NCBI RefSeq assembly: GCF_006345805.1
Contig: NC_042997.1
Span: 159,092,001-159,156,000, forward strand
Direction of reading: 5' to 3'
Source of the DNA: Octopus sinensis
Lineage: Eukaryota
Length of the DNA stretch: 64,000 bases
The position numbers and the translations under genes were made by a program. This document shows, one piece after another, positions 30,070 to 33,803 of this stretch (positions within the stretch are counted from its first letter, which is position 1; each line of letters begins with the position of its first letter). A model generated the notes under the pieces. That model had not been told where the DNA came from, did no database searches, and was given only the letters and a program-made list of their open reading frames with translations.

Positions 30070-30472
30070 TCTAATACAGGATAAAATTTTTCGAAAAAAA
30101 TTCTATCAATGGCCAGCATATTAAAAAAATACATTTAAAGGTTAAATTTATAAACAAGGGCAAAAGAAAAAATTTCTAATGCCGAAAATAGACACATCGT
30201 CAATAACCATATAATTCATCACTATAAGCACGCGTCTCGAAGAAAGCCGACAGAAATTTCTAAAAAATTCCATTATTATCATATCGGACCCGATTTCAGA
30301 GTTAACTCATAAGAACCTTCTCATCGTCAGTGATAAGTGCGGCAAAGAAATAAATGAAATACTTACCTATAACCCATGGAAGAATAAATGATGAATTATA
30401 TGGTTATTGACGATGTGTCTATTTTCGGCATATTTGGCGTTAGAAATTTTTTTCCTTTGCCCTTGCTTATAT
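30070..30472 (-). mobile_element. (TA)n-flanked HHR element with ~80-bp inverted duplication
   Basis: 30148-30221 is the reverse complement of 30389-30471; a hammerhead lies between them. Confidence 0.8.
30276..30336 (-). ncRNA. Type I hammerhead ribozyme, intact core
   Basis: Minus strand: ttatca CTGACGA t gag...ctc t GAAA TCGG-gt-CCGA TA| tgataa. Stem I is 6 bp and stem III is 5 bp. Confidence 0.85.
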
Positions 30473-31151
30473 GTTGTTTATATAGGTATATATATATATA
30501 TATACCACAAAAATAAAGAATGAACAGGTGAAACACGGAGTTAGACCGTTTCATAGGAAAGTGATATTTGTTACATAAGTTGTAACATACAGAAAAACAC
30601 CTTAGCTAATCTTCAGGTCCTGTTACTTCACTGTTGTTACATTGTCGTGTGAAGATGAGTAAATGAATTCTCACAGTGGTCGCGTAGCTGACAGGTCGCA
30701 AATTCTGTCTCACTTTTTTCTATCCTTTGGGATGTCTTCTAAGGGTTACCCACTATTCTTGTCTTTTAGGCCCAAAGGCTATATTTTGCTCGTTTCTTAT
30801 TTATTTCATCTTTGTCCATCGTCCTAAATCACATTTATTCACTTTCTTATGTCTACTCTGTATTGTTTTGTTTGCTTTCGGCCCTATATTCCCCGCAAAT
30901 TTTTGCGAGCACCGCCTGCAGTTCTCAGTCTGTGAAGTTCCCAGTCTTATCATTAATGGTACGAAACTGAGGATTATCATTTGGTTGATAACTGATGAAG
31001 AATCAAGAACCTTCTGCGTCTGTCTCCCGTCCGGTTGTACACTTAGTATACATTATGTCGTTTGCTTATTTACCATACACTTTTTCATTTATTAAGTAAC
31101 GAATGCAACGCACACCGTATTGCATGTGTGTGTGTATATATGAATGTATGT

Positions 31152-31334
31152 ACCAGTAAAGTTAATCGCCACATCAAAGTGGCTGTTCCATGTTACTACA
31201 AGCGTAACCCCAGGCAGATCTTCCGCCAGCTGGTTATCGGTGCAGCCTGCACCCTGTGCATATATATTGCTAGTAGAGGAGCAATAGTTGTAACATGGAA
31301 CAGCTACATTGATGTGGCAATTAACTTTACTGGT
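31152..31334. mobile_element. MITE (~180 bp)
   Basis: ~45-bp TIRs ACCAGTAAAGTTAATCGCCACATCAAAGTGGCTGTTCCATGTTAC / GTAACATGGAACAGCTACATTGATGTGGCAATTAACTTTACTGGT. Confidence 0.8.
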
Positions 31335-31684: not shown

Positions 31685-31720
<36 letters not shown>

Positions 31721-31727
<7 letters not shown>

Positions 31728-32341
31728 TTCTAGGTTTTTCATTTTTCAGATGTTCTTCCTAGAGGTAAGACAATTTTTTTCATGTTTGTTGCACACACGC
31801 ATCTTTACTAGTACATACGCAGTGAAGCTATGCATTAGCGTCGTATTTATTACGTTCGCTATTTTCCAGTAAATATCGGTGCTTCGTTGTGCCATTTATT
31901 TACTTTTATATGTATAATTTTACCCTCACGGGCTATCCTTTACTGGAAAGCAATACTCTCGTATTGCATTACTATTTTCATTGAAACTTCTTCACTGTTC
32001 TCGTTCTGTTAACGTTTTGGCGTTCAGACGAGTGTACTGGCATAGATGTGGCAACATTTGAAATATTATCGAGGTATATGCAGCTGATGAAGATAAATCA
32101 AATATACGTTGGCAAACGTATTTTGAAGAATCTGAAACCGGTACTGCATTATCCGTTTCTAGGTTTTTCATTTTTCAGATGTTCTTCCTAGAGGTAAGAC
32201 AATTTGTTCATGTTTGTTGCACACACGCATCTTTACTAGTACATACGCAATGAAGCTATACATTAGCGTCGTATTTATTACGTTCGCTATTTTCCAGTAA
32301 ATATCGGTGCTTCGTTGTGCCATTTATTTACTTTTATATGT
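31721..32341 (+). mobile_element. Retrozyme-like 1.5-mer: 429-bp monomer plus ~190-bp repeat, inserted in (TA)n
   Basis: 31721-31913 recurs almost identically at 32150-32341; a hammerhead ends immediately before the junction. Confidence 0.85.
32078..32149 (+). ncRNA. Type I hammerhead ribozyme, intact core
   Basis: atgcag CTGATGA aga...(tcaaa-atacgtt / aacgtat-tttga hairpin)...tct GAAA CCGG TA| ctgcat; predicted cut after 32143. Confidence 0.9.
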
Positions 32342-33803
32342 ATATATATACCCCCAAAATAAGGAATGAACGGGTAAAACACGAAGTTAGACCGTTTCAT
32401 GGGAAAGTGATGTTTGTTATATAAGTTGTAACATACAGAAAAACAGCTTAGCTAATCTTCAGGTACTGTTACTTCACTGTTGTTACATTGGCGTGTGGAG
32501 ATAAGTAAATGAATTATTAAACTACTCACAGCACGAAGCCAAAACGTATTTTGATCGGACTAATGATTATGGATTAAATGTTTATCCACTCTCAGACATA
32601 TCTTTGAGTTCTTTATTGTAAGTGGATGGATATAACTTCTTTGAACTTATCACAACTTGGAATATGTATGTGGTGGTGATGGGGGGGGCGATAACGGGGA
32701 GAGAAAGAGAGAGAATGAGAAACAGTAAAAGGACTTTAAAACAAAAATGCACTTTTGAAACAGCGCGCCAATTAACTGGCGTAACGTGCCTATGATTCTA
32801 GTTCTGTATGTAGATGGCCTTGTTCTTTAGGTTAAGTAGAATCTCATCATGTCACGTCAGATAGTCACTGAGCTACATGCGATAGGACGAGCGTCAATCT
32901 GTCGCAAGTTCAACAATCAAGTGTTTGGAAGACAAACGTTGATGCAGAAGCCTTTGGTATATATACATAAGTGTGCGAATGCGTAAGATAAAAGTTTATA
33001 TTCGGGTTATTTTTTTAAAGTTTGAGAATAAAAATAGAACATTTACTGATTTACTGGTGGTGAAAATCACTACTGAGGGTAGATTCAGATTTAATGAAAA
33101 TTTTGTTTTGACGGGGATTTTCGTTCCACCCGATGAGAAAGATCGCCTAAACCGTCAAGCGAAACTTAATGTCGAATCAACATGAAATTTACAACATGCA
33201 CACTCATACATATGATATGTATTATATCTATACACAGAGAGAGAAAGAAAGCTAGAGAGAGAAAGATTCAGAGAGAGAGGGTGAAAGAAATATAGAGTCA
33301 GAGAGAGGAGGCGAGAGATTCAGATTTTTCTTTAAATTCAAGGATTATTTCTGAAATTTTCTGACCTTTAATACTCTTTATCAATGCAAACACTTGGAGA
33401 CTTCATCGTGAATGTAATCTAATGAGTTGAAAAATAGAGCTTGTAGTTATAAATGAAAAGTGAACGCATTTTGTATACATGCATTCAATTTTGACACACA
33501 CACACATGTAATTTGTGTACATACATGCATTTTGTACGCATGAGTTCATTTCATACACATTCGTCTATTTGTGGGTGCGGTACACATCTGTTCTTTCTAA
33601 ATGTGTGCAGCAGAGAAGTAAAATGCAACTGTAAGTGCAGCTGTGCATTTGCTTTACATATCTTGTAAAGCTTGTTTATATGTCTTAATGTTTATTTGTG
33701 TGAACGTATTTATTTATCGTTATGTACATATTTTTGCATGTATGTTTGTATCTATATATATTTATGTACATATATATGTATATGTATGTACGTGTGTGAG
33801 TAT

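What the first reader, a model, noticed from the sequence alone, without database searches (positions are those of the whole stretch)
31721..32341. Retrozyme-like 1.5-mer whose 5' end sits 6 nt from the ribozyme cut site
Seen: 31721-31913 is repeated almost identically at 32150-32341, giving a 429-bp period. An intact hammerhead (32078-32149, GUA cut after 32143) ends exactly at the repeat junction. The first copy therefore starts only 6 nt downstream of the equivalent cleavage point. Both ends abut (TA)n and there is no ORF. Inference: this is the expected product of reverse-transcribing a ribozyme-processed multimer, or a ~430-nt circular RNA read for more than one turn, primed in a TA microsatellite. 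The near-identity of the repeats suggests a young insertion.
Basis: partly seen in the sequence, partly recalled or inferred. Interest (0 to 1): 0.8.

Follow-up and report, generated by a model that had tools for sequence, protein, structure and literature searches.

The report
Ribozyme-bearing Penelope-type hitchhiker retroelement
This is one copy of an abundant, protein-free jumping repeat that carries a hammerhead-ribozyme motif and lands in TA repeats; its copies end at two fixed points, one for each half of mirror-image insertions, so it is likely copied by a Penelope-type enzyme, and a minority of copies, possibly this one, start where the ribozyme would cut.

Summary
In detail: a 621-bp, 1.45-unit element with one intact type I hammerhead motif, no ORF and (TA)n on both sides.

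It belongs to a family with at least 765 exact 22-mer hits. In 123 loci (191 arms), 185 3' ends fall at two internal sites 65 nt apart (A, B), mostly before TA repeats. Sixty-six loci are head-to-head pairs; 60 of 61 classifiable pairs join an A arm to a B arm. Two start sites, a one-sided 'tail' and inverted pairs are published Penelope-like element (PLE) hallmarks, so this is a non-autonomous PLE-type non-LTR retrozyme. No autonomous partner was found.

The cut-site idea is partly right. 5' ends pile up at the cut (12 seen, 1.4-3.5 expected), but about 85% of arms read through it, and many nearby ends lie beyond the cut. This copy's end (+7, ambiguous to +10) is about even odds cut-defined. 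A circle has no 5' end, so a cut-defined end would imply a partly cleaved linear multimer.

Verdict: new member of a known kind. Its value is the counted A+B rule. Cleavage, expression and circles are untested.

The parts
31691..31723 (.). Left (TA)n target tract; its last 3 bases (TAT) are also the first 3 of the element (microhomology)
31721..32341 (+). Whole element: 1.45 units of a 428-429-bp monomer, no ORF
31721..31913 (+). Upstream copy of the repeated part; starts 6 nt after the equivalent ribozyme cut (c7, where c1 = first base after the cut)
31909..31916 (+). Internal 3'-end site A (c195-202) of the upstream unit, read through here; 117 of 191 family arms end at site A
31917..31981 (+). 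65-nt 'tail' between sites A and B with three short predicted hairpins (z = -2.2 for 31880-32000); inferred protein-recognition region
31975..31982 (+). Internal 3'-end site B (c261-268); 68 of 191 family arms end here; loose ends at 31978-31982 in all four runs laid
32078..32149 (+). Type I hammerhead motif with palindromic helix III (32137-32142); predicted cut after 32143; core intact in 101 of 113 distinct copies; compensatory changes at six pairs
32150..32341 (+). Downstream copy, ending at site A, the inferred priming point of this insertion
32341..32350 (.). Right (TA)n target tract, about 5 units

Best explanation
This is one insertion of an abundant, ORF-less, hammerhead-bearing tandem retroelement (non-LTR retrozyme) that is likely copied into TA microsatellites by the reverse transcriptase and endonuclease of an unidentified Penelope-like element. 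Shown: two fixed 3' ends (A, B) against TA tracts, variable 5' ends, A+B head-to-head pairs, a conserved ribozyme fold, and a modest pile-up of 5' ends at the cut. Inferred steps: (1) a multi-unit RNA is transcribed, and the short palindromic helix III would cut efficiently only when two ribozymes pair, so most sites stay uncut or are religated; (2) the PLE protein nicks (TA)n and primes inside the RNA at site A, and in about half of the events the other strand is primed at site B; (3) each cDNA runs 5'-ward until it stalls or reaches an RNA end and is joined by 1-5 nt of microhomology to the target or to the other cDNA. This copy was likely primed at A, copied through one uncut ribozyme and ended 6-9 nt short of the next cut upstream; odds are about even that this end marks a ribozyme-made RNA 5' end trimmed back to TAT.
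For: At least 765 exact 22-mer hits. In 123 loci, 185 of 191 arm 3' ends are at A or B; 60 of 61 classifiable head-to-head pairs are A+B (P about 2e-17 against independent choice); 52 of 66 pair junctions overlap by 1-18 nt. Paired arms are closer to each other than to other copies (3.1% vs 6.9%, 38 pairs). Ribozyme core intact in 101 of 113 copies, with compensatory changes at six pairs; helix III stays palindromic or near-palindromic while its length changes between subfamilies. 5' ends at c5..-3: 12 seen vs 1.4 (local) or 3.5 (global) expected. Second-pass arms of the short-helix-III class, this copy's class, end within c21..-11 in 10 of 19 cases vs 17 of 101 on first pass. The c7 end recurs in L004/L281, L278 and L092. 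Long-ORF PLEs whose 3' ends abut (TA)n exist in this genome. Literature match: two internal start sites that define the tail, both strands nicked and extended, predicted dimer (PMC11167929); tail at one end of inverted structures (PMC8557442, PMC3846280).
Against: No partner found: no BLAST hit between the monomer and 42 GIY-YIG loci or 8 loci of a second PLE family, apart from a neighbouring family copy and one 14-nt match; a by-eye likeness to one pLTR failed its control (130 of 500 shuffles scored as well). In the locus set the cut-site excess is weak (12 vs 7.0, P = 0.05). Over all subfamilies the second-pass excess is borderline (18 of 61 vs 17 of 101, P = 0.076), and all windows were chosen after seeing data. 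Seven of those 18 ends were scored 5-11 nt beyond the cut, which a cleaved end cannot give. A stronger stop region lies at c172-250 (47 vs 22.5), unrelated to the cut. For PAc the ribozyme was dispensable in vitro and no RNA-seq ends were found at the cut (PMC11167929). Eight of nine Xenopus retrozymes did not cleave in vitro (bioRxiv 2026.07.22.740005). Cleavage, transcription and circles were not shown here.
Confidence: 0.75

Rival explanations
1. Same family and PLE-type mechanism, but this copy's 5' end is an ordinary truncation: the enzyme stalled at or near the folded ribozyme, or stopped at random, and the TAT at c7-9 offered microhomology to the TA target. The 6-nt distance is coincidence or structure, not cleavage.
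For: 77 of 92 and 87 of 99 arms read through the cut. Ends at -5 to -11 inside the helix III palindrome are about as common as ends at the cut. The junction overlaps the TA tract by 3 nt. Other hot spots exist with no ribozyme (c172-250).
Against: Six of the rows end at c1 or within 3 nt past it, with the extra bases explained by the flank in five (by eye); flanking windows hold 7 ends in 3541 nt at risk vs 12 in 696 at c5..-3. A stall would not differ between first and second pass, yet it does in this class.
Confidence: 0.4
2. The template was a ~430-nt circular RNA read for 1.45 turns; the stop near the cut is then incidental.
For: Read-through across the cut is seamless (cut-flanking columns nearly free of indels). 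No long source array was seen: longest 3.2 units among 40 scored candidates and three consecutive periods at one locus, so multimers need regenerating. Units within an arm mostly differ by rare alleles only. Retrozyme circles are shown in coral, mussel and axolotl (PMC7229834).
Against: A circle has no 5' end, so it cannot explain the excess at the cut. The second-pass stop region c172-250 is used by A arms (19 of 33) and B arms (9 of 13) alike, so it follows position rather than one full turn. No RNA evidence here.
Confidence: 0.25
3. The 621 bp are the 5'-truncated pseudo-LTR remnant of an autonomous PLE, not a separate non-autonomous family.
For: Tail, inverted pairs and TA targeting are features of autonomous PLEs, and this genome has such elements.
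Against: The unit closes on itself with no ORF; arrays of 3 or more seamless units exist; the upstream flanks of 55 single arms share no common continuation; no homology to 50 PLE loci examined.
Confidence: 0.05
4. A local DNA-level tandem duplication or satellite unit with a chance hammerhead-like motif.
For: The window is rich in local repeats.
Against: Dispersed on many contigs with fixed 3' ends, variable 5' ends and inverted pairs; compensatory changes in the ribozyme; 0 descriptor hits in 30 shuffles.
Confidence: 0.01

Closest known systems
Metazoan non-LTR retrozymes (Cervera and de la Pena 2020, PMC7229834; Li, Clavereau and Pollet 2026, bioRxiv 10.64898/2026.07.22.740005)
   Same: ORF-less, low-GC tandem monomer with one type I hammerhead per unit; dispersed monomers and short multimers; proposed to be PLE-mobilised.
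   Different: Monomer 428-429 nt, just above the 170-400 nt of the 2020 paper and inside the 51-972 bp range of the 2026 preprint. This copy has one ribozyme only, so it fails the preprint's two-ribozyme 'active' rule. Those papers link retrozymes to PLEs by co-occurrence and pLTR similarity; here the link is the insertion footprint (two priming sites, A+B pairs) and no pLTR homologue was found. Circles not shown here.
Poseidon PLE of Anolis, PAc (Frangieh et al. 2024, PMC11167929)
   Same: Two internal start sites downstream of a hammerhead that define a 'tail'; AT-rich targets; both strands extended.
   Different: PAc is autonomous and the PLE tail is 30-40 bp (65 here). In vitro it showed no difference in start site between strands, whereas here paired arms use A and B almost exclusively one each. 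No RNA ends at the cut were seen for PAc; here a minority of genomic 5' ends sit there.
PLE inverted pLTR and 'tail' structures (Arkhipova et al. 2013, PMC3846280; Craig et al. 2021, PMC8557442)
   Same: Head-to-head inverted 5'-truncated copies, tail at one end, microhomology junctions, (TA)n preference, non-autonomous members.
   Different: Described there without counts in the passages read. The 2013 paper explains palindromic junctions by self-priming on an antisense template; the A+B rule here fits double priming on sense RNA better (inference).
Dimeric type I hammerheads with palindromic helix III (Cervera and de la Pena 2014, PMC4209133)
   Same: 6-bp helix I, 4-bp helix II, short palindromic helix III expected to work as a dimer.
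   Different: Long helix II extension; sister subfamilies carry longer helix III palindromes (10-12 nt) that could fold as monomers (untested).

Membership tests
Non-LTR retrozyme | Tandem short monomer with a type I hammerhead in each unit | tested here: met
   this copy holds one full ribozyme, other copies two or more
Non-LTR retrozyme | No protein-coding capacity, low GC, no LTR | tested here: met
   longest open frame 68 codons; AT-rich; the direct repeat is a partial tandem with variable 5' end; no tRNA primer-site scan was run
Non-LTR retrozyme | Many dispersed copies | tested here: met
   765 exact 22-mer hits; 1887 candidates
Non-LTR retrozyme | Self-cleavage of the RNA | not testable with these tools
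   only fold conservation and the 5'-end excess
Non-LTR retrozyme | Expression as linear and circular RNA | tested here: inconclusive
   no run on record as RNA, contigs only
Penelope-like element, non-autonomous | Two internal 3' ends defining an optional tail | tested here: met
   A 117, B 68, other 6 of 191 arms
Penelope-like element, non-autonomous | Head-to-head inverted 5'-truncated copy, tail at one end | tested here: met
   66 pairs in 123 loci; 60 A+B, 1 A+A, 0 B+B, 5 with another end
Penelope-like element, non-autonomous | Partial-tandem structure and AT-rich or microsatellite target | tested here: met
   98 of 117 A ends and 65 of 68 B ends followed by TA-rich sequence
Penelope-like element, non-autonomous | Sequence shared with the pLTR of an autonomous PLE | tested here: inconclusive
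   none in 42 + 8 PLE loci; only a small part of 5029 GIY-YIG candidates was examined
Autonomous EN+ PLE | ORF with RT and GIY-YIG domains | tested here: not met
Rfam hammerhead families | Score at the family's gathering threshold | tested here: not met
   the motif was identified by descriptor and compensatory changes instead

The most novel reading that the evidence does not exclude
The family is a genomic record of double target priming: one PLE protein dimer on one RNA nicks both strands of a TA repeat and assigns start site A to one strand and site B to the other (60 of 61 pairs), while the hammerhead, cutting only in multimers, makes the 5' end of part of the templates. That would explain PLE inverted repeats and the one-sided tail without an antisense template, show in vivo use of the ribozyme, and give footprint-level evidence that animal retrozymes ride on PLE proteins.
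Probability: 0.35. Interest if true: 0.65.

Novelty: new member of a known kind. Interest (0 to 1): 0.42.

Why it matters
The class is known and its PLE link was proposed in 2020 and argued by sequence in 2026, so the locus itself is ordinary. Two open points in PLE biology become countable with this family: how the inverted half and one-sided tail are made, and whether the hammerhead is used in vivo. A 430-nt ORF-less RNA with two mapped start sites, hundreds to thousands of insertions and subfamilies that differ in helix III length is a compact substrate for the published in vitro PLE assay, once a partner protein is found.

Tried and rejected
Rfam: no hammerhead hit at either threshold.

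Partner search: a recalled Pfam accession was not in the library. GIY-YIG loci and a second PLE family found through an RT fragment beside L138 share no significant sequence with the monomer. A resemblance to that family's pLTR seen by eye failed: 130 of 500 shuffles and 20 of 420 genomic flanks scored as well.

Expression: no RNA holder listed; this is no evidence either way. Contigs of 4 runs (3 coded organisms) hold the family but cannot show ends, strand or circles.

Strict twin priming as the cause of the c172-250 hot spot: rejected as sole cause, because single arms stop there too (14 of 26). Short B arms in pairs are no more frequent than short A arms (19 of 45 vs 12 of 27).

Circle versus linear source by unit-to-unit differences: uninformative. 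Target-site duplication cannot be read inside (TA)n.

The 170-bp flank repeat (30500-30669 / 32346-32515) is older than the element (92% vs 98%) and not its TSD.

Earlier scan notes: none for this genome or sequence.

Not-in-print searches: searches found no paper with a counted A+B rule or genomic cut-site 5' ends for a retrozyme. The library lacks most subscription papers and Repbase was not available, so the family may be catalogued there. No supplements were read; those of the bioRxiv preprint are closed and may list related families.

Full report
Coordinates. c1 is the first base after the predicted cut (32144); negative numbers lie before it. The window is G000:C1:159092001-159156000 of a 2.72-Gb genome. 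That it is a cephalopod-like animal is a recalled impression, not tested.

1. Observation. 31721-31913 and 32150-32341 match with 3 substitutions and one indel. 32078-32149 is a type I hammerhead motif with a 6-bp stem I, an extended stem II and a palindromic helix III. It is the only descriptor hit in the window, with none in 30 shuffles. Rfam misses it. There is no ORF (longest frame 68 codons). The left TA tract overlaps the first three bases, so the 5' junction is c7 to c10.

2. Family. The element gave 1887 candidates, 40 scored. Exact probes gave 72, 161, 765 and 66 hits. For a sample not ranked by score I took all 72 hits and the listed hits except four loci; 665 hits were not listed. 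That made 137 loci, 126 after removing duplicates, 123 after dropping two more duplicates and this locus; six stray or duplicate pieces were also removed. Contigs of 4 of 4 runs laid, from three coded organisms, hold the family.

3. 3' ends. Of 191 arms, 117 end at site A (c184-204 as scored), 68 at site B (c257-268) and 6 elsewhere. TA-rich sequence follows 98 of 117 and 65 of 68. Neither site is the ribozyme cut. Between them lie three short predicted hairpins. Sixty-six loci are head-to-head pairs, 55 are single arms, 2 are other. Pairs are A+B in 60, A+A in 1, B+B in 0, and 5 have another end; P is about 2e-17 against independent choice. 52 of 66 junctions overlap by 1-18 nt. In 38 pairs with shared template the arms differ by 3.1% against 6.9% to other copies. 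This fits one source RNA but also successive subfamilies.

4. Ribozyme. The core is intact in 101 of 113 distinct copies. Six pairs in stems I and II show double changes that keep pairing; these are subfamily events, few in number. Helix III varies from a 6-nt to 10-12-nt palindromes or near-palindromes. A short palindromic helix III is described as needing a dimer to cut (PMC4209133). Cleavage was not tested.

5. In the rows (100 of 161 listed; window row and one duplicate dropped; scored by eye) 12 arms end at c5..-3 against 1.4 expected from the flanks or 3.5 from the mean rate (P 3e-8 and 3e-4). Arms reaching the zone a second time stop at c21..-9 in 5 of 8 cases against 17 of 101 on first pass (P 0.008; L182 left out). 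In a set picked by pattern alone, 10 of 19 short-helix-III arms stop there against 8 of 42 others (P 0.014; five unclassified rows were counted with the others). The c7 end recurs at three other loci.

6. 5' ends, against. 77 of 92 and 87 of 99 arms read through. In the 123 loci the excess is 12 against 7.0 (P 0.05); three events are shared with the set. Over all subfamilies the second-pass excess is 18 of 61 against 17 of 101 (P 0.076). Seven of these 18 were scored 5-11 nt past the cut, inside helix III, and seven 11-20 nt short of it. Windows were chosen after seeing the data. The largest stop region is c172-250 (47 against 22.5), used by single and paired arms alike. I put the odds that this copy's end is cut-defined at about one half.

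7. Template. 89 of 191 arms span one cut site and 3 span two. The longest arrays seen are 3.2 units and three consecutive periods. Seamless read-through without long source arrays suggests that circles or precise end-to-end jumps regenerate multimers (inference). But a circle has no 5' end, so any cut-defined end must come from a linear RNA cut upstream and uncut downstream. Both kinds of template are probably in use. This copy, with one ribozyme, cannot release a unit by double cleavage.

8. Partner. GIY-YIG search gave 147 matches among 150 of 5029 candidates scored. Two families have 775-781-aa frames with RT and GIY-YIG matches (RT just under the Pfam cut-off) and end at (TA)n. A third young family has pLTRs, a hammerhead-like motif seen by eye and TA ends. 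None shares significant sequence with the monomer. PLE mobilisation therefore rests on the footprint, not on an identified partner.

9. Known systems. Papers seen: bioRxiv 10.64898/2026.07.22.740005, parts 1-3 of 5; PMC11167929, parts 1-2 of 4; passages only of PMC8557442, PMC7229834, PMC3846280, PMC4209133; no supplements. Together they describe non-LTR retrozymes, their proposed PLE origin, the two internal start sites, the one-sided tail and inverted copies. What I did not find in print is a count of the A+B rule or genomic 5' ends at the cut; PAc showed neither strand-specific start sites nor RNA ends at the cut. One earlier scan note from another genome (e1-7858806) reads similar palindromic insertions the same way; it is unchecked and not counted as support.

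10. Verdict. Real feature; new member of a known kind. Confidence 0.75 in the mechanism as a whole, about 0.85 in the family assignment, about 0.5 in the cut-defined end of this copy. Interest 0.42.

Noticed in passing
window:30071-30480: A different repeat with head-to-head arms (30149-30221 / 30389-30471, 86%) of unequal reach and TA tracts at both ends; copies in L009, L072 and L228. Possibly a second family of the same design; a degenerate hammerhead-like core on the minus strand was seen by eye but missed by the descriptor.
   Followed up: partly
window:30500-30669 and 32346-32515: Local 170-bp duplication, 92% alike, while other genomic copies are at most 83% over a long match. Both copies follow a TA tract; the element sits in the second tract, so it is likely the later arrival.
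   Followed up: partly
window:31458-31690: Abundant dispersed repeat just left of the TA tract, with several copies in the window and about 100 hits in held loci; it looks like a SINE (recalled label).
   Followed up: no
L228:674-5440, L229, L230, L234: Young PLE family with two long frames (479 and 781 aa), a long 3' region with internal repeats and TA ends; L229 ends about 38 nt further than the others, its own tail. A hammerhead-like motif with a U3-A8 core and palindromic helix III was seen by eye near the 3' end; that core variant is described in PMC4209133.
   Followed up: partly
L233 and L237 3' regions: PLE family with a compact type I hammerhead motif about 150 nt before a TA end.
   Followed up: partly
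L254-L261: Very young, abundant PLE family (many copies 97-100% at protein level) with ~780-bp pLTRs and TA ends.
   Followed up: partly
L262-L324 (helix III): Helix III differs in length between subfamilies while staying palindromic or nearly so; long-palindrome subfamilies read through the cut more often and include the longest arrays of this set.
   Followed up: partly
family positions c212-218 (window 31926-31932): Sharp cluster of 12 5' ends at a small hairpin between sites A and B; unexplained.
   Followed up: no
L138, L183, L163: L138 and L183 have the same inverted junction with A and B arms swapped; in L163 both arms end 4 nt past the cut with a 6-nt filler.
   Followed up: no
window:31152-31199 / 31287-31334: 48-nt inverted repeat, 92% complementary, 87 nt apart.
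   Followed up: no
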